Source: Escherichia coli (lineage in GTDB: Bacteria; Pseudomonadota; Gammaproteobacteria; Enterobacterales; Enterobacteriaceae). Taken from it: 64,000 bases of DNA. The DNA lies in NCBI RefSeq assembly GCF_050920415.1, contig NZ_CP169309.1; one strand, given 5' to 3'. Positions 54,750 through 61,063 of the stretch are shown in pieces. Every line of letters starts with the position of its first letter. The first letter of the stretch is position 1. The position numbers and the translations under genes are program-made. A model generated the notes under the pieces. That model searched no databases and had not been told where the DNA came from. It worked only from the letters and a program-made list of their open reading frames with translations.

Positions 54750-55070
54750 TTAGCGGTTGATGGTTGCTTTTTTCGGGTCATACCATCTCGGCCATTCTTT
54801 CAGGAATGGGAATGAGTCGGGAGCGTGGTTCTTTTTGTACGATTTAAGCAGCCTTAACCGCTCTATCGCACACTCATAAACCTCTTGTTGCCCTGTAGTC
54901 ATCTCGGTCCATGAAAGGTGATCCATTGATAAGACAACGTTTTCAGCTTCTTTTATGAGGGCGTTTTTATTTCTCACCGCAGCAGCATGGCTGACAGAGC
55001 AATCCTGCCATATTCTTAAAAGCCAAATAGCTAAGCAGATAAAAAAAATGGTAGATAGCGATATATACAC
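54750..55070 (-). CDS. small membrane protein, N-terminal TM helix (GTG start after AAGGAGG)
   Basis: 106 aa from GTG at 55070 with strong SD 5 nt upstream; the longer ORF to 55286 overlaps the divergent gene. Confidence 0.4.
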   Translation of the reverse strand: MYISLSTIFFICLAIWLLRIWQDCSVSHAAAVRNKNALIKEAENVVLSMDHLSWTEMTTGQQEVYECAIERLRLLKSYKKNHAPDSFPFLKEWPRWYDPKKATINR

Positions 55071-55100
55071 ACCAACCTCCTTAGTTTTGAGCAGGATACC

Positions 55101-55466
55101 ATGAAAAAAGTTAACATTGGAAACGTACCAAAGATGCTCGTACCGCTCTTTGAGAGCGGTACAATTGTGTTTTGTAGAGACTTTCCAGAATGGCAACGCC
55201 TGCATCAAAAACTTGGCGTTGACGTGCATGACTCGGACGCCAACGGAGCGTCTCATACAATGAGTAGCGAGAATGGTGTTTTGCATGTGATAGGCGTGTT
55301 CAATGGCAAACTATCTACTATTGCCCATGAGTGCGCTCACATGGCATTCGATATCTGCTCAAGGGTAGGTGTTGATGTTGAACCAGGAAGAGCCAACGAG
55401 ACTTACTGCTACTTAATGAGCAGGCTTGTTGAGTTCTGCGAGCGACATATCAAAAAGCCGGAGTGA
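55101..55466 (+). CDS. small protein with HExxH motif (HECAH), candidate minimal zinc metallopeptidase
   Basis: 121 aa; motif read from translation; divergent from the membrane-protein gene. Confidence 0.45.
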   Translation: MKKVNIGNVPKMLVPLFESGTIVFCRDFPEWQRLHQKLGVDVHDSDANGASHTMSSENGVLHVIGVFNGKLSTIAHECAHMAFDICSRVGVDVEPGRANETYCYLMSRLVEFCERHIKKPE

Positions 55467-55479
55467 CCCGGCTTGATTA

Positions 55480-55660
55480 TTACTTTTTGCTGTCTGGAGT
55501 TCGCTTATCCAATACCCAGCCATGACCTGGCTTTGTTGTTGGTGGAAGCCTTTCGTTGTCCTTGACGGTGGCAAAATTGTCTTTCTTACCGCCGCGTGGG
55601 CCAACTTCTTGGTATATTCCGCCGTTTTTTCCTGTGTTTTCACCTGGTTTTTTCGCCATG
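55480..55660 (-). CDS. small hydrophilic protein, 60 aa
   Basis: ATG with GAGG-like SD; MAKKPGENTGKNGGIYQEVGPRGGKK. Confidence 0.35.
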
Positions 55661-55758
55661 ATATACCTCAACATACACCCGTTATTGGGCGATTAAATAT
55701 TGATCTCATTTTATAAGTAGTCAATATGGCCCAGGTAAATGCAAAAATTAACTCACCG

Positions 55759-56010
55759 TCAGGTGGTTTTTTTGTACAAATCCTTCAGCGTATCAAACAC
55801 CATCTTCTTAACAAGATCTGACTGCTCATCAGCGAGTCGTTCTGCATCGTCACGATATCCAGTCACAGGCGATGGTTTTGATAGAGCATCTTGGACGATT
55901 TGCAACAATTCTGAGTTCATTGATCTACCATTTGACTCTGCTCTGTATTTTAATTTTTCTCTTACTTCCAAAGGCATGCGGAAGTTAAAGTGCGGATCGT
56001 CTCTAGCCAT
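55759..56010 (-). CDS. mnt: Mnt repressor (ribbon-helix-helix)
   Basis: 83 aa, near-identical to remembered P22 Mnt. Confidence 0.85.
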   Translation of the reverse strand: MARDDPHFNFRMPLEVREKLKYRAESNGRSMNSELLQIVQDALSKPSPVTGYRDDAERLADEQSDLVKKMVFDTLKDLYKKTT

Positions 56011-56033
56011 GCCATCACTCCAAGTTAGTATCT

Positions 56034-56297
56034 TTAACTTTCGTCTTTATTGTTGCCATACATGCATTTCAACTTCTCAACATCATGTTCAAGATCTATC
56101 AATCGTGATGCTATAGTTGCAAGGTCTAGTGCTTGAATGTGTTTATTTTTTTCGGTCCATGCTTCAAGTGCCGCGACCATCTCAGCATTTAATGAACGAG
56201 AATTAGCCTCAGCCAGTTCAATAAGACGTTCCTTTATCTCTACAGGAAGCCTCAGATTCACTTGAGGGTTTTTGTACTTACGATCAGACATCGGCAC
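56034..56297 (-). CDS. ribbon-helix-helix protein (Arc/MetJ-like) upstream of mnt
   Basis: N-terminal VNLRLPVEIKERLIELAEANSRSLNAEMVAALEAW RHH pattern. Confidence 0.5.
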   Translation of the reverse strand: MPMSDRKYKNPQVNLRLPVEIKERLIELAEANSRSLNAEMVAALEAWTEKNKHIQALDLATIASRLIDLEHDVEKLKCMYGNNKDES

Positions 56298-56396
56298 ATC
56301 CTGAATAATTTTTTACCACAGGATATGTAGGTATCTATTGACTATCAATGCGTACCTAAATACTATGTATGCGTACCACATACAACGGAGGATGCA

Positions 56397-56537
56397 ATGA
56401 AGGTAAAAACACTGCGTATGCCAGAGAAGTTAGAAAAAATCCTTGAAGAGAAAGCAAAGGAAGAGTGTCGCTCATTTAGCGCAGAAGTAATTAAACGGGT
56501 GATGGACAGCCTGAAGAGAGATGGGGTGGCGATATGA
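56397..56537 (+). CDS. Arc-like ribbon-helix-helix repressor
   Basis: 46-aa ORF with GGAGG SD; divergent from mnt; upstream of the ant-position gene. Confidence 0.55.
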   Translation: MKVKTLRMPEKLEKILEEKAKEECRSFSAEVIKRVMDSLKRDGVAI

Positions 56538-57439
56538 ATAAAGAAGATGGCTTTAAGTGCTCCTTCTGCTGAAAGCCTCAGCATGAATGTGCAATGTTGA
56601 TTCGCGCTAAAGCAGAGATATTTATCTGTAATGGTTGTGTATCTCTTTGCGTTGAAGCGATGGGGAAAGAGTTAAATTCTAGAAAAACAATGTTAGATGT
56701 GAGCATAAAACAGTGAAGCCCCAACTGCGGTAACAGTCAGGGCTTCGGTATCAACAAAACTTACGAGGTATTATTGATATGTCAAGCTTAGCAAAGTCAA
56801 CTGTAAATTGCACTAATAGCATCATCATTTCTGACGTCAAGATTCATATGGATTCAGAGGGTCGTTACTCGCTTAATGACCTTCATGTAGCGTCTGGAAA
56901 GGAGGAAAAACATCAGCCAGCTTTCTTCATGCGTAGAAATGAAACTATTGAATTGATTAATGAAATTTTTAATTCTGCGGATATGCAGAATAAGAATCCC
57001 GTCATTTCTAAGAAAGGTAGATATGGTGGAACATACGTGTGCAAGGAGCTTGTTTACTCCTACGCCATGTGGATTAGCGCAGCATTTGCGCTGAAGGTTA
57101 TCCGCGCATATGACGCAATGGTTACTGCCACACAAGAGAGGAAGGCTATTGGCGGTAAAACTTCAGTAGCTGAACGCACGCCGCTACGCGATGCAGTAAA
57201 CATGCTGGTAGGAAAGAAAGGACTTCGCTATGACGATGCATACAATATGGTTCATCAGCGTTTTGGTATTGACAGCATTGATGAACTTTCAATTGAACAA
57301 ATCCCGCTGGCCGTAGAGTACATCCACAGGGTAGTGCTTGAAGGTGAGTAGACTGGCCCCCTGAATCTCCAGACAACCAGTATCACTTAAATAAGTGATA
57401 GTCTTAATACTAGTTTTTAGACTAGTCATTGGAGAACAG

Positions 57440-57805
57440 ATGATTGATGTCTTAGGGCCGGAGAAACGCAGACGGCGTACCACACAGGAAAAGATCGCAA
57501 TTGTTCAGCAGAGCTTTGAACCGGGGATGACGGTCTCCCTCGTTGCCCGGCAACATGGTGTAGCAGCCAGCCAGTTATTTCTCTGGCGTAAGCAATACCA
57601 GGAAGGAAGTCTTACTGCTGTCGCCGCCGGAGAACAGGTTGTTCCTGCCTCTGAACTTGCTGCCGCCATGAAGCAGATTAAAGAACTCCAGCGCCTGCTC
57701 GGCAAGAAAACGATGGAAAATGAACTCCTCAAAGAAGCCGTTGAATATGGACGGGCAAAAAAGTGGATAGCGCACGCGCCCTTATTGCCCGGGGATGGGG
57801 AGTAA
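57440..57805 (+). CDS. insC: IS2 transposase OrfA
   Basis: [26 protein letters not shown] recognised. Confidence 0.9.
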
Positions 57806-58668
57806 GCTTAGTCAGCCGTTGTCTCCGGGTGTCGCGTGCGCAGTTGCACGTCATTCTCAGACGAACCGATGACTGGATGGATGGCCGCCGCAGTCGTCAC
57901 ACTGATGATACGGATGTGCTTCTCCGTATACACCATGTTATCGGAGAGCTGCCCACGTATGGTTATCGTCGGGTATGGGCGCTGCTTCGCAGACAGGCAG
58001 AACTTGATGGTATGCCTGCGATCAATGCCAAACGTGTTTACCGGATCATGCGCCAGAATGCGCTGTTGCTTGAGCGAAAACCTGCTGTACCGCCATCGAA
58101 ACGGGCACATACAGGCAGAGTGGCCGTGAAAGAAAGCAATCAGCGATGGTGCTCTGACGGGTTCGAGTTCTGCTGTGATAACGGAGAGAGACTGCGTGTC
58201 ACGTTCGCGCTGGACTGCTGTGATCGTGAGGCACTGCACTGGGCGGTGACTACTGGCGGCTTCAACAGTGAAACAGTACAGGACGTCATGCTGGGAGCGG
58301 TGGAACGCCGCTTCGGCGACGATCTTCCGTCGTCTCCAGTGGAGTGGCTGACGGATAATGGTTCATGCTACCGGGCTAATGAAACACGCCAGTTCGCCCG
58401 GATGTTGGGACTTGAACCGAAGAACACGGCGGTGCGGAGTCCGGAGAGTAACGGAATAGCAGAGAGCTTCGTGAAAACGATAAAGCGTGACTACATCAGT
58501 ATCATGCCCAAACCAGACGGGTTAACGGCAGCAAAGAACCTTGCAGAGGCGTTCGAGCATTATAACGAATGGCATCCGCATAGTGCGCTGGGTTATCGCT
58601 CGCCACGGGAATATCTGCGGCAGCGGGCTTGTAATGGGTTAAGTGATAACAGATGTCTGGAAATATAG
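57763..58668 (+). CDS. insD: IS2 transposase OrfB (DDE domain)
   Basis: 301 aa recognised as IS2 InsD. Confidence 0.9.
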
Positions 58669-59105
58669 GGGCAAATCCAGTGAGTTCATTGGCAAACAAG
58701 AGAAGAAAACCAACGAGCTTTCTGCAAAAGAAGCAAACAGCCTTGTATGGTTATGGGATTATGCCAACCGCTCACAGGCATTATTCCGCGAATTGTATCC
58801 GGCATTAAAACAAATTCAATCGAACTATTCCGGCAGATGTCATGACTGCGGTTATGAGTTCTCCCGTATTATCGATATAGCGAGAGACGTTTTAATTAAT
58901 CACACACGAGATGTTGATATCAATGAGCCAGACGGACCAACGAATCTTTCCGCATGGATGAGACTTAAGAATAAAGAATTACCTCCTTCAGTACATAATT
59001 ACTGACAGATAACCAACGCAACGACCCAGCTTCGGCTGGGTTTTTTTATGCCCAAAATTCACCGTAGCCATGCTGCGGCGATTCCTTGTATCTGGAGCAA
59101 ATTAA

Positions 59106-61063
59106 ATGACAGACATTACAGCCAATGTTGTAGTGAGCATGCCTTCGCAACTCTTTACTATGGCCCGCTCTTTTAAAGCCGTAGCTAATGGTAAAATTTA
59201 TATCGGTAAAATTGACACTGACCCGGTAAATCCTGAAAACCAGATTCAGGTTTATGTAGAGAACGAAGACGGCTCTCACGTTCCTGTTTCGCAACCAATC
59301 ATCATTAACGCTGCTGGATATCCGGTATATAACGGACAGATTGCCAAATTCGTAACTGTGCAAGGCCATTCTATGGCTGTATATGATGCGTATGGTGCAC
59401 AGCAGTTCTATTTTCCTAATGTGCTGAAGTATGACCCTGATCAGTTTAAGCAGCAGTTAGAAAGCGATGCTGATGGAATGGGAGATGCATTAGTTACAGT
59501 TAAACAACCGTACACTGGTGCTACTTCTATTTCACAGCACATTAAAAATTCACAGGCTATAAGTGTTATTGATTTTGGCGCTACAATTGACGGAACGCTT
59601 CACCCTTTAAGCGAGATATTTTCAACACTATCAGCCGCTCAGATGGTATATCCATTTGTTTCATCTCTATCTCAATCTGTTGATTATGCTGCGCTTCAGT
59701 CCGCATGTAACACGGGAAAAACAGTGCTTATTCCAAAGGGAACTGGTTACTATAATTCAACTATTTTTCTGAAAAACTCCGTCAGGATTGTTGGAGAGGG
59801 AACTGATACAATAAATAGAGCGCAATCATTTATGTCTATTGTTGGTAATATTTCAGCCTTTGCTTTAGATCAAGGTGATTCACTATCGACAAAAATGATT
59901 CAGATTTTTATTGATGGTCTTTATATTTTCTATGATCCAGGAACCACACCAACGAATCCTGAAGATGATGGTGGGAAAATTGCATTTAATTTCTACTCGA
60001 CAATTCCAAATTCAACAAGCTTGGAAATGTCTGAAATTAAAAACTGTACAGTTCATGGTGCATGGTCATGCTTTAATGATCAGACTGGCACATACTTGAC
60101 AAAACTTACGAATGTGTGGGCCAGAAACTGCCATAATGGTTTTACAAAAGGAACTGGCACTACCATTCTGATGGAAAGATGTTATACATCTGGATGTATA
60201 TCACCATATCAGTTTGGTTCTGTCTTTGCAGCTACAATGATTAACTGTGCCATGGATGGATCAAATATTTCGTTAAACGCAGGTTCGCTTGGTGGGGCTG
60301 GCGTTCATGTTCTTAACACACATAGTTTTAACATTATTGGTTTTGATGCGGAGGGTAACACCATCTCTACAGATGGTTATGGAGAGGCAGCACTATTCCA
60401 TTTCGAAAATAGTAGTGGTGGCATTTCTGGCCTGACTGCACATCAGAACAGCATGCGAAGTGTTGCGCCAAGTGATGCTGGTGTAGTTTCCTACATCAGG
60501 GCGTCAGGTAGCAGCGATGTAAAATTGAGTCATCAGAAGATGATTTATCTGACACCAACACAGTTGCATATACTGGGTCTGGGTATCCCATCATGCTACA
60601 TGCAACTGACACAGCTAAAATAAGCGTCTTTAATAGCAGATTCAGGGCGACTACCACTGGTACCCCTGTCTTAAGTACGCTAAGTACTGGTGATGTATCA
60701 TGGTATGACTGCCCTAAAAAAACAGGACTTATCGTAGATGGTTATTCACAAATAACATCTAAGGAAGGATTGCAAACATCATGCTTCTATACCAGTAAAG
60801 GCTCTACTGCTGTTGCTGAAAATACTCCGACAACACTTTTCTCTCTACCAGATTCGCAAGGTACTTACATTATTAGCGTATGGGGGGCTGGAAGCGGAGA
60901 AAATTACGCATCTACACAACTGGCAATGTATGATGGAGATAAGCTAATTCTTGTTGCGTTAAAAATAGCAGCATTTCTTAGTTTTTCAGCAACAGGGAGA
61001 ATTGTAACCATTACAAGCCAGGGCACAGGCACTTTTAATTGGACCTACACAAAAATAGGTTAA
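59106..61063 (+). pseudogene. tailspike (P22 gp9-type head-binding N-terminus) split into two overlapping ORFs, 59106-60623 and 60593-61063; apparent frameshift
   Basis: N-terminus [34 protein letters not shown] matches P22 tailspike head-binding domain; second frame is open from 60512 with no SD-preceded start. Confidence 0.6.

What the first reader, a model, noticed from the sequence alone, without database searches (positions are those of the whole stretch)
55759..56537. Three ribbon-helix-helix repressors in the immI-like region
Mnt, an extra 87-aa RHH protein upstream of mnt, and a divergent Arc-like gene precede the IS2-disrupted antirepressor-position gene. This is a more elaborate RHH circuit than P22 mnt/arc.
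Basis: partly seen in the sequence, partly recalled or inferred. Interest (0 to 1): 0.3.

Follow-up and report, generated by a model that had tools for sequence, protein, structure and literature searches.

The report
Stacked Mnt repressors in prophage immI
Three small DNA-binding repressor genes really do sit next to a broken antirepressor gene in this defective P22-like prophage, but only two of them belong to the local switch; the third is a P22-type Mnt gene with no local binding site that probably silences the antirepressor of other incoming phages.

Summary
All three ORFs hit Pfam Arc (PF03869) above the curated cut-off. The "87-aa" ORF is a real gene, probably 85 aa from the ATG at 56291. 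It has 141 homologues across Enterobacterales and dN/dS of about 0.16.

The locus is a mosaic:
- A complete CUS-3-type immI module: alt-Mnt, a 61-bp control core, a 46-aa Arc-like gene, sar RNA and ant.
- A P22-type mnt fused 23 nt downstream of alt-mnt, exactly where P22's own promoter and operators would begin.

P22 Omnt and Oarc are absent from all 64 kb, so the third RHH has no exact cognate site in cis.

The same trio is already deposited in phage CUS-3 (2007, two "mnt" genes) and annotated by PGAP in UTI89 and E50. It occurs in 44 of about 140 E. coli genomes that carry this module.

Different Mnt types are stacked in at least five other junctions or orders, up to three in a row in L014. 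Best reading, by inference: the extra Mnt extends P22-style bipartite immunity to phages with another immI type.

The surrounding prophage is decaying: IS2 in ant, a nonsense codon in a ClpX-zinc-finger gene, and a tailspike frameshift.

The parts
55455..55474 (-). Terminator-like hairpin ending the alt-mnt / mnt / orf59a operon. It is the homologue of the annotated P22 mnt terminator.
   Evidence: Terminator scan. P22 annotation. 96.7% identity to P22 over 55067-56029.
55480..55674 (-). 64-aa homologue of P22 orf59a, the last gene of the operon. Function unknown.
   Evidence: ORF list. P22 annotation and homology. Weak YjzC Pfam hit below cut-off.
55759..56010 (-). P22-type Mnt, 83 aa. The N-terminal DNA-reading residues ARDDPHFNFRMP are identical to P22 Mnt. 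It has no own promoter and no exact cognate operator in the window ('orphan').
   Evidence: Pfam Arc plus Repressor_Mnt. 93% aa identity to P22 Mnt. Omnt absent. dN/dS 0.10 among stacked alleles.
56011..56033 (-). 23-nt spacer between the alt-mnt stop and the mnt start. It carries the P22 mnt leader and Shine-Dalgarno sequence (GGAGTGATGGCATG). The mosaic junction lies at 56029/56030, where P22 has the Pant -35 and Oarc.
   Evidence: Sequence comparison with P22 and CUS-3. Junction mapped by BLAST.
The probable start is the ATG at 56291, giving 85 aa. It has an RHH domain plus a C-terminal helix. Its base-contact residues are Q-N-R, as in P22 Arc.
   Evidence: Pfam Arc 3.4e-10. 141 homologues. 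Alignment. PDB Mnt hit. Model and fold search. Annotated 'mnt' in CUS-3.
56298..56396 (.). Divergent control region.
- Pant-like promoter TTGACT-17-TACTAT, 56338-56366 (+).
- Pmnt-like promoter TTGATA-17-TATCCT, 56348-56320 (-).
- 33-bp imperfect palindrome, 56327-56359.
- 19-bp palindrome TGTATG-N7-CATACA, 56366-56384.
- Three GGTAC-type boxes phased at 21 bp: 56370-56378, 56349-56357 and 56328-56336.
   Evidence: Promoter scan and repeats. The 61-bp core 56324-56384 is 95-97% identical to Klebsiella and Morganella loci and 88.5% to L090, whose flanking genes are 55-67% identical. The core co-occurs with a promoter-proximal alt-Mnt in most loci.
56397..56537 (+). Arc-like RHH, 46 aa, first gene of the ant operon. 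It has a strong Shine-Dalgarno sequence (GGAGG). Its predicted base-contact residues are V-T-R.
   Evidence: Pfam Arc 1.2e-8. PDB Arc hits. dN/dS 0.09 over 18 alleles. PGAP annotation in E50 and UTI89.
56534..56716 (+). Gene for a ClpX C4 zinc-finger-like protein of 60 codons. It overlaps the arc-like stop codon (ATGA). It is inactivated here by GGA>TGA at codon 13 (56570-56572).
   Evidence: Differs at only 3 bases from the intact WP_047668240 in L006, one of them the GGA>TGA nonsense change.
56712..56777 (-). sar antisense RNA, ending 2 nt before the ant ATG. It includes the conserved terminator hairpin at 56715-56746.
   Evidence: Rfam RF00262, 62.8 bits against a gathering score of 43, E 5.2e-12. 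Terminator scan. Conserved in P22 and CUS-3.
56779..57348 (+). 5' part of the antirepressor gene ant (KilA-N domain, 190 codons).
   Evidence: Pfam KilA-N 8.4e-20. 98.8% nt identity to ant of Salmonella phage Emek.
57349..58679 (+). IS2 insertion (1331 bp) with a 5-bp target duplication GTGAG at 57344-57348 and 58680-58684.
   Evidence: Sequence of both ends. Transposase ORFs.
58685..59005 (+). 3' part of ant (P22AR_C domain). Removing IS2 and one duplication copy restores a 296-aa reading frame.
   Evidence: Pfam P22_AR_C 1.8e-29. Frame check.

Best explanation
The region is a mosaic of two immI systems.

(1) A complete CUS-3-type immI module:
- alt-Mnt (56034-56291, minus strand).
- A back-to-back promoter pair whose adjacent -35 hexamers lie inside a conserved 61-bp core.
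- On the other side, the ant operon: the Arc-like gene, a small ClpX-zinc-finger gene and ant.
- The sar antisense RNA over the ant ribosome-binding site.

In a lysogen, alt-Mnt is expected to shut Pant and so keep the antirepressor silent. It is probably a tetramer formed through its C-terminal helix, bound to the 21-bp-phased GGTAC boxes. After infection, the Arc-like protein and sar would limit the burst of Ant.

(2) A P22-type mnt gene. It keeps its own ribosome-binding site and the P22 orf59a and terminator. It has been joined 23 nt behind alt-mnt, exactly at the point where P22 has Pant/Oarc/Omnt.
- It is therefore transcribed from the alt-Mnt promoter as the second gene of a lysogenic operon.
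- It has no exact cognate operator anywhere in the window.
- That position is a hypervariable cargo slot in relatives.

The most likely role of the orphan Mnt is in trans. It would bind Omnt on incoming P22-like phages that carry the canonical P22-type immI. Such phages are common in E. coli. Binding would stop them from making Ant, which would otherwise inactivate the resident repressor. This extends P22's known bipartite (immC plus immI) immunity to a second immI type.

Shown: gene identities, the mosaic junction, absence of the P22 operators, conservation of the control core, recurrence of stacking.

Inferred: co-transcription, which protein binds which box, and the trans-immunity function.
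For: Gene identities:
- All three genes are RHH by Pfam.

The junction and loss of P22 operators:
- P22 homology (96.7%) runs 55067-56029 and stops at the mnt leader. From 56030 the sequence is CUS-3/E50 type.
- P22 Omnt and Oarc are absent from the window at up to 3 mismatches. They are also absent from all stacked loci examined.
- No terminator-like or promoter-like site was predicted between alt-mnt and mnt. The P22 mnt terminator is retained at 55455-55474.

The two-RHH module stands alone:
- The alt-Mnt plus Arc-like module occurs without a P22-type mnt in many E. coli prophages and in Klebsiella and Morganella phages.
- 139 E. coli genomes carry the control region at 80% or more coverage. 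44 carry the stacked junction.
- The 61-bp core is 95-97% identical to Klebsiella and Morganella loci (88.5% to L090), against 55-67% for the flanking genes.
- When the alt-Mnt family gene is in second position (L011, L014, L060), its own core is absent.

The cargo slot:
- The slot after alt-Mnt holds 20 distinct sequence clusters, nearly all unrelated to one another, including GmrSD_N plus HEPN genes.

Stacking recurs:
- Heterotypic Mnt stacks recur with different junctions and orders.
- CUS-3 type then P22 type: 12 loci.
- Third type, then CUS-3 type, then P22 type: L014.
- Third type then CUS-3 type: L060 and Xenorhabdus L011.
- CUS-3 type then a third type: L021/22, L082, L090/91.

The orphan looks functional:
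- Orphan Mnt alleles keep the P22 DNA-reading N-terminus. They show dN/dS 0.10 and no frameshifts or stop codons in 12 loci.

Targets exist:
- Canonical P22-type modules with Omnt and Oarc circulate in E. coli prophages.

sar is present.

Established knowledge: P22 Mnt represses ant, and immunity is bipartite (Levine 1975; Botstein 1975; Susskind 1980, as cited in PMC11016777 and PMC2629481).
Against: - No expression or binding data exist. Co-transcription and trans action are inferred.
- The B-type boxes (TAGGTACGC) share TAGGT with the Omnt half-site (TAGGTCCAC). Some cis binding of the P22-type Mnt is therefore not excluded.
- All junctions joining the CUS-3-type gene to the P22-type gene look like one ancestral event spread by recombination. 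Their frequency could reflect hitch-hiking.
- The low dN/dS may have been inherited from alleles that recombined in from canonical modules.
- The 33-bp palindrome is not significant on its own (356 of 5000 shuffles reach it). The promoter scan finds no more sites than shuffles do.
- In this particular prophage, ant, the zinc-finger gene and the tailspike are broken. The whole region may simply be decaying.
Confidence: 0.55

Rival explanations
1. A genuine three-repressor circuit in cis. The P22-type Mnt also binds the local control region through the TAGGTA-type boxes. Together with alt-Mnt and the Arc-like protein it would tune Pant and Pmnt.
For: - The Omnt half-site TAGGTCCAC and the local boxes TAGGTACGC / TAGGTATCT share the TAGGT core.
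- The two Mnt-like proteins differ at only one of the three base-contact positions, H-N-R against Q-N-R.
- Both genes lie in one predicted operon.
Against: - No site within 3 mismatches of the 17-bp Omnt exists.
- Box spacing differs: 21 to 25 bp centre-to-centre here, against about 10 bp in Omnt.
- The same control core works without a P22-type Mnt in about 70% of E. coli carriers and in other genera.
- In reciprocal stacks (L011, L014, L060) the alt-Mnt family member itself sits behind a different control region.
Confidence: 0.12
2. A neutral recombination relic. The P22-type mnt was trapped behind alt-mnt by a single mosaic recombination in the fast-changing 'ant moron'. It has no function and has simply not yet decayed.
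For: - All stacks of the CUS-3-type gene followed by the P22-type gene share one junction sequence.
- The region is known for rapid flux (PMC2629481).
- Remnant mnt-like genes are discussed for phage L (PMC8022706).
- The prophage here carries three inactivating lesions nearby.
- One stacked allele (L012) has a substitution in the conserved GRS motif.
Against: - dN/dS is 0.10, with an intact frame and an identical DNA-reading N-terminus in 12 of 12 stacked loci.
- The junction persists across very different flanks: K1 endosialidase, other tailspikes, different Ant types.
- At least five further independent stack junctions involve other Mnt types, including a triple stack.
- The RHH genes are intact while neighbouring genes are broken.
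Confidence: 0.25
3. The 87-aa ORF is a chance open frame and only two RHH genes exist.
For: The ORF is short, and the GTG start listed mechanically is probably not the real start.
Against: - Pfam Arc E 3.4e-10.
- 141 homologues in many genera with an invariant beta-strand.
- dN/dS 0.16.
- Confident RHH-plus-helix model.
- Annotated in CUS-3 and by PGAP.
Confidence: 0.01

Closest known systems
[quoted passage not shown]
   Same: - Same position, between the gene 16 homologue and the tailspike.
- Same logic: a leftward Mnt-like maintenance repressor and a rightward Arc-like gene followed by ant.
- Overlapping divergent promoters.
- A sar antisense RNA that passes the Rfam threshold.
- The 83-aa Mnt here is 93% identical to P22 Mnt, and its leader, orf59a and terminator are 96.7% identical at DNA level.
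   Different: - The P22 control DNA (Pant, Pmnt, Omnt, Oarc) and the P22 arc gene are missing.
- They are replaced by an unrelated control core, a different Mnt-like gene (31% identical) and a 46-aa Arc-like gene (34% identical to Arc).
- An extra small gene lies between arc and sar.
- Ant has a KilA-N N-terminus.
'Ant moron' of coliphage CUS-3 (CP000711; King et al. 2007) and the UTI89, E50 and UM146 prophages
   Same: - Identical architecture: P22-type mnt, alt-mnt, the same control region and the same 46-aa Arc-like ORF.
- About 99% identity over alt-mnt to arc.
- The same mnt/alt-mnt junction.
- Two genes annotated 'mnt' in CUS-3. PGAP annotates three Arc-family proteins in UTI89 and E50.
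   Different: - The window's mnt is mostly a P22-like allele (81% aa identity to the CUS-3 copy).
- The gene after arc is a ClpX-zinc-finger type, as in L006.
- ant is Emek-type and carries IS2.
- CUS-3's record calls the arc region a 'boundary sequence'. A 2008 comparison stated that CUS-3 lacks arc (PMC2629481), which the present analysis contradicts.
P22 Mnt repressor protein (PDB 1mnt; Pfam Arc plus Repressor_Mnt)
   Same: alt-Mnt has the same overall build: an N-terminal RHH domain and a C-terminal helix of the length used by Mnt for tetramerisation. Mnt is its best PDB sequence hit (E 1.9e-5, covering residues 8-71).
   Different: - Only 31% identical.
- The Repressor_Mnt C-terminal Pfam domain is not detected.
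- Base-contact residues are Q-N-R, as in Arc, not H-N-R.
- The predicted operators are different.
P22 Arc repressor (PDB 1par, 1arr)
   Same: The 46-aa protein is an Arc-family RHH of minimal size. It is encoded first in the ant operon, and Arc is its best PDB match.
   Different: - It has a shorter N-terminus.
- Predicted contact residues are V-T-R instead of Q-N-R.
- No Oarc sequence is present, and its operator is not identified.

Membership tests
Ribbon-helix-helix, Arc-like DNA-binding domain (Pfam PF03869) | Profile match above the curated gathering score for each of the three ORFs | tested here: met
   98.1, 40.0 and 35.0 bits against a cut-off of 20.4. PDB sequence hits to Mnt and Arc.
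Ribbon-helix-helix, Arc-like DNA-binding domain (Pfam PF03869) | Strand, helix, helix topology | tested here: met
   Tested for the 87-aa protein only.
- AlphaFold model: pLDDT 80, helices 17-29 and 34-48 after an extended N-terminus.
- Best Foldseek hits are Arc-operator structures (1par, probability 1.00).
- E-values are only 0.02-0.05 because the domain is tiny.
- The strand pairs only in the dimer, which was not modelled.
P22 Mnt repressor (Arc domain plus Repressor_Mnt PF11423) | C-terminal Mnt tetramerisation domain | tested here: met
   The 83-aa ORF scores 63.6 bits, E 1.3e-17. For the 87-aa ORF this domain is NOT detected. It only has a predicted long C-terminal helix, residues 57-79.
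P22 Mnt repressor (Arc domain plus Repressor_Mnt PF11423) | N-terminal specificity residues (Arg2, His6, Asn8, Arg10) | tested here: met
   The 83-aa ORF has an N-terminus ARDDPHFNFRMP identical to P22. alt-Mnt has Q-N-R instead. The assignment of contact residues rests on established Mnt/Arc literature, not on a test here.
P22-type immI region | mnt operator (Omnt) and arc operator (Oarc) between divergent mnt and arc | tested here: not met
   No match at up to 3 mismatches in 64 kb. Both are found in the P22 and E. coli controls.
P22-type immI region | Divergent Mnt-like and Arc-like RHH genes flanking overlapping promoters, followed by ant | tested here: met
   ORFs, Pfam and promoter-like sites. 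The promoter sites are consensus matches supported by cross-genus conservation, not by transcript data.
P22-type immI region | sar antisense RNA opposite the ant ribosome-binding site | tested here: met
   Rfam RF00262, 62.8 bits against a gathering score of 43, at 56712-56777(-). ant ATG at 56779. No convincing Psar promoter was found by eye or by the scan.
P22-type immI region | Repression of ant by Mnt and Arc; Ant inactivates the prophage repressor | not testable with these tools
   Needs reporter, EMSA or phage genetics.
CUS-3-type immI arrangement (tandem mnt genes) | Same mnt/alt-mnt junction, control core and Arc-like ORF | tested here: met
   Alignment with CUS-3 and E50. The junction is present in 44 E. 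coli genomes.

The most novel reading that the evidence does not exclude
Temperate phages of Enterobacterales may collect Mnt-type maintenance repressors of foreign immI specificities in the cargo slot of their own mnt operon. Up to three are found in tandem. Each orphan would silence the antirepressor promoter of a different class of incoming phage. This would be a modular, stackable 'anti-antirepressor' immunity that widens bipartite immunity and protects the resident prophage from induction by heterotypic Ant proteins.
Probability: 0.35. Interest if true: 0.55.

Novelty: new variant of a known kind. Interest (0 to 1): 0.35.

Why it matters
- If the orphan Mnt works in trans, the immI region is more than a private switch. 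It would be a slot where prophages accumulate repressors against competitors' antirepressors. That adds a simple, testable layer to phage-phage competition and to predicting which prophages can cross-induce each other.
- It also corrects the literature view that CUS-3-type ant modules lack an arc gene.
- It defines a 61-bp operator/promoter core that is nearly invariant across genera and is ready for binding studies.
- If the orphan is only a relic, the locus is an ordinary mosaic of the fast-evolving 'ant moron'.

Tried and rejected
- Searched for P22 Omnt and Oarc in the window at up to 3 mismatches. None found, so a P22-type control region is rejected.
- Tested the 33-bp palindrome by shuffling. 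It is not significant alone (356 of 5000). The operator argument therefore rests on cross-genus conservation, not on symmetry.
- The promoter scan found 4 sites against 4.0 expected, so it is not evidence by itself.
- Looked for covariation between the Arc-like beta-strand and operator variants to assign operators. The alt-Mnt strand is invariant and the Arc-like changes are too few, so the result is inconclusive.
- Looked for a Psar promoter inside the 5' end of ant. No convincing -10/-35 was found.
- Pfam on ten cargo-slot proteins gave almost nothing, only one Clp-protease-like hit. The claim that the slot carries defence genes therefore rests on a single Morganella locus with GmrSD_N/HEPN.
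- The CUS-3 paper (PMC1951898) is not held.
- Literature searches for stacked or tandem Mnt genes found nothing. That is weak evidence of absence.
- No complete E. coli genome in the collection covers 80% or more of 55700-56800. The exact mosaic could not be traced to a source strain.
Full report
**Observation**

Each matches the Arc-like ribbon-helix-helix domain PF03869 above Pfam's 20.4-bit gathering score.

| ORF | Length | Pfam result |
|---|---|---|
| 55759-56010(-) | 83 aa | Arc 98.1 bits; also Repressor_Mnt 63.6 bits |
| 56034-56297(-) | 87 aa | Arc 40.0 bits |
| 56397-56537(+) | 46 aa | Arc 35.0 bits |

- The 83-aa protein is 93% identical to P22 Mnt. Its N-terminal twelve residues are identical.
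- The 87-aa protein's best solved relative by sequence is Mnt (1mnt, E 1.9e-5). The 46-aa protein's best relatives are Arc and pArc.
- An AlphaFold model of the 87-aa protein (pLDDT 80.3) shows an extended N-terminus, helices 17-29 and 34-48, and a long helix 57-79. Its best Foldseek hits are Arc-operator crystal structures.
  - 141 homologues occur across Salmonella, Yersinia, Citrobacter, Klebsiella, Tatumella, Pectobacterium, Serratia, Morganella, Shewanella and Xenorhabdus.
  - Their YKNPQVNLRLP strand is almost invariant.
  - dN/dS is 0.16 over 22 alleles.
- The real start is probably the ATG at 56291 (85 aa), as annotated in CUS-3 and by PGAP.

**Anatomy and mosaic structure**

| Window segment | Closest relative | Identity |
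|---|---|---|
| 55067-56029 | P22 | 96.7% |
| 55077-56029 | E. coli 2013C-4991 prophage | 98.2% |
| 56030-56545 | CUS-3 / E50 type | about 99% over alt-mnt to arc |
| 56454-56799 | L006 type | 91% |
| 56707-57349 | Salmonella phage Emek | 98.8% |

- The P22-like segment covers the mnt terminator, orf59a, mnt and the mnt leader.
- That homology stops at 56029/56030. This is exactly where P22 continues with the Pant -35 hexamer, Oarc and Omnt.
- From 56030 the window instead continues with the stop codon of the 87-aa gene.
- The P22-type mnt has therefore kept its Shine-Dalgarno sequence but lost its promoter and operators. It sits 23 nt behind the other Mnt-like gene ('alt-Mnt').
- No terminator-like or promoter-like site is predicted between the two genes. 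The P22 mnt terminator is retained at 55455-55474. From this I infer an operon alt-mnt, mnt, orf59a.
- P22 Omnt and Oarc are absent from the whole 64-kb window at up to three mismatches.
- They are also absent from every stacked locus examined. They are found in P22 and in canonical E. coli modules used as controls.

**The local switch**

The 99-bp divergent region contains:
- A Pant-like promoter, TTGACT-17-TACTAT, at 56338-56366 on the plus strand.
- A Pmnt-like promoter, TTGATA-17-TATCCT, at 56348-56320 on the minus strand. The two -35 hexamers abut each other.
- A 33-bp imperfect palindrome at 56327-56359.
- A 19-bp palindrome, TGTATG-N7-CATACA, at 56366-56384.
- By my reading, three GGTAC-type boxes at 21-bp phasing: 56370-78, 56349-57 and 56328-36.

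Neither the promoter scan (4 sites against 4.0 expected) nor the palindrome (356 of 5000 shuffles reach it) is significant alone.

The strong evidence is comparative.
- The 61-bp core 56324-56384 is 95-97% identical to Klebsiella and Morganella loci and 88.5% to L090. The flanking alt-Mnt and Arc-like genes there are only 55-67% identical at DNA level.
- The core accompanies a promoter-proximal alt-Mnt in most of the roughly 85 loci examined.

Which protein binds which element is not shown. My inference is that alt-Mnt reads the TAGGTAC boxes.
- Its contact residues are Q-N-R, as in Arc.
- The boxes share TAGGT with the P22 Omnt half-site TAGGTCCAC.
- The boxes share TAG..TAC with the palindrome at the Omnt position in phage Emek. 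Emek's Mnt is also Q-N-R.
- The operator of the Arc-like protein (contact residues V-T-R) remains unidentified.

Downstream of the Arc-like gene (listed further under Context):
- A ClpX-zinc-finger-like gene.
- The sar antisense RNA, Rfam RF00262, 62.8 bits against a gathering score of 43, at 56712-56777 on the minus strand.
- ant, which has KilA-N and P22AR_C domains.

**Is it one three-repressor circuit?**

Probably not.
- The alt-Mnt, control core and Arc-like module stands alone in many prophages. Downstream of alt-Mnt those prophages carry something else, such as a 105-aa protein with an N-terminal hydrophobic, signal-like segment in E. coli LR-24 and O104:H4.
- The module also occurs in siphovirus-type Klebsiella and Morganella prophages.
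- In complete E. coli genomes, 139 carry the control region at 80% or more coverage. 44 carry the mnt/alt-mnt junction.
- Across 85 loci, the position after alt-Mnt holds 20 distinct sequence clusters, nearly all unrelated to one another. The start often overlaps the alt-mnt stop. The Morganella case encodes GmrSD_N and HEPN proteins.
- So the P22-type mnt occupies a hypervariable cargo slot that is co-expressed with the maintenance repressor.

**Stacking recurs**

In an IMG/VR survey of 80 loci, 16 have two or more Mnt-like RHH genes in tandem. Xenorhabdus L011 adds one more case.

| Order of Mnt types | Loci |
|---|---|
| alt-Mnt, then P22-type | 10 loci, one shared junction |
| Third type ('TPLGxRIP'), then alt-Mnt, then P22-type, plus an Arc (four RHH genes) | L014 |
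| Third type, then alt-Mnt | L060; Xenorhabdus L011 with a different junction |
| alt-Mnt, then third-type variants | L021/22, L082, L090/91 (three different junctions) |

- Where alt-Mnt is the downstream gene, its own control core is missing.
- That makes at least six distinct junctions in total.
- Orphan P22-type alleles keep an intact frame and the P22 N-terminus in 12 of 12 loci, with dN/dS 0.10.
- This figure may be inflated by recombination with alleles from canonical modules.

**Mechanism proposed**

- In P22, immunity is bipartite. The c2 repressor must be backed by Mnt, which keeps ant silent on the prophage and on superinfecting genomes. This is established knowledge (Levine 1975; Botstein 1975; Susskind 1980, cited in PMC11016777 and PMC2629481).
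- Canonical P22-type immI modules, with Omnt and Oarc essentially identical to those of P22, circulate in E. coli P22-like prophages.
- An orphan P22-type Mnt expressed from the alt-Mnt promoter would therefore repress Pant on such incoming phages. That would protect the resident prophage from their Ant.
- This step is inferred, not shown.
- I give the whole package 0.55. The structural part (a two-RHH module plus a captured mnt without an exact cis operator) is much more secure than the trans-immunity function.
- Rivals:
  - Cis cross-binding of P22-type Mnt to the TAGGTA boxes, giving a true three-repressor circuit: 0.12.
  - A neutral recombination relic: 0.25.
  - A non-coding 87-aa ORF: 0.01.

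**Comparison with the known**

- The kind is the P22 immI region.
- The exact arrangement is already deposited. Phage CUS-3 (CP000711, 2007) annotates two 'mnt' genes. PGAP annotates three Arc-family proteins in UTI89, E50 and others.
- However, the CUS-3 record labels the arc region as a 'boundary sequence'. Villafane et al. 2008 stated that CUS-3-type morons apparently lack arc and must control ant differently (PMC2629481).
- The 46-aa Arc-like ORF has dN/dS 0.09, a strong Shine-Dalgarno sequence and a Pfam hit. This shows the module is P22-like in logic after all.
- I found no paper that discusses tandem heterotypic Mnt genes. The library is incomplete.

**Context**

The prophage is decaying.
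- The ClpX-zinc-finger gene has GGA>TGA at codon 13, 56570-72.
- ant carries IS2 at 57349-58679, with a 5-bp duplication GTGAG. Removing it restores a 296-aa frame.
- The tailspike has a 1-nt deletion after 60519 relative to intact homologues.
- The three RHH genes and orf59a are intact.
- This fits retention of lysogen-expressed genes, but it is a single case.

**Verdict**

- The locus is an instance of a previously deposited but uncharacterised immI variant.
- The modest novelty lies in the recurrent stacking of Mnt specificities and in the conserved operator core.

Noticed in passing
window 56534-56716 (+): A 60-codon ClpX C4 zinc-finger-like gene overlaps the arc-like stop codon. It is killed by a GGA>TGA change at codon 13 (56570-56572). 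Relatives carry different tiny genes in this slot between arc and sar: another CxxC...CxxC ORF in CUS-3 and E50, and a 73-aa ORF in LR-24 and Emek. A free ClpX zinc-binding domain in an antirepressor operon might interfere with ClpXP substrate or adaptor recognition. This was not tested.
   Followed up: partly
window 57349-58679: IS2 (1331 bp) is inserted in ant, with an intact 5-bp target duplication GTGAG. Excising it in silico restores a 296-aa KilA-N plus P22AR_C antirepressor. Its 5' part is 98.8% identical to the ant of Salmonella phage Emek.
   Followed up: yes
window 59106-61063 (+), lesion after 60519: The tailspike gene (Head_binding domain) is split into 505-aa and 156-aa ORFs. The cause is a 1-nt deletion (GATGTTAAAA to GATGTAAAA) relative to intact 97.6%-identical homologues in porcine ETEC strains. 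It is either a frameshift pseudogene or a sequencing error.
   Followed up: partly
window 56712-56777 (-): A sar antisense RNA passes the Rfam gathering score. The first hairpin differs from the consensus but still pairs. No convincing Psar promoter is visible inside the KilA-N-type ant 5' end.
   Followed up: partly
L014 1995-3036 (IMGVR_UViG_2541047931_000005): This locus has four RHH genes: an Arc-like gene divergent from three different Mnt-type genes in tandem (third type, then alt-Mnt, then P22-type). The second and third have only 12-24 nt spacers. The junction between the third-type gene and alt-Mnt falls at a TGGTAAA microhomology between the 3' end of one mnt and the leader of the next.
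   Followed up: partly
L009 2766-4636 (Morganella metagenome scaffold): Directly downstream of the alt-Mnt homologue, in the same cargo slot, lie a GmrSD_N (type IV restriction-like) gene and a HEPN (MAE_28990 / RiboL-PSP) gene. This suggests the Mnt operon is used to express anti-phage defence genes from the prophage.
   Followed up: no
L094 1726-2061 (Salmonella phage Emek): Emek has yet another Mnt type (ARNDPQFNVRMP, contact residues Q-N-R) paired with a nearly P22-type Arc. A TAGTAC-G-GTACTA palindrome sits at the Omnt position. So at least four Mnt specificity types exist and are shuffled independently of Arc and Ant.
   Followed up: partly
window 55101-55466 (+) and 54750-55286 (-): Two overlapping ORFs of 121 aa and 178 aa lie on opposite strands, between the gene 16 homologue and orf59a. 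This is the position where P22 has sieA and its promoter. Neither has a significant Pfam match. Which one is real, if either, was not examined.
   Followed up: no
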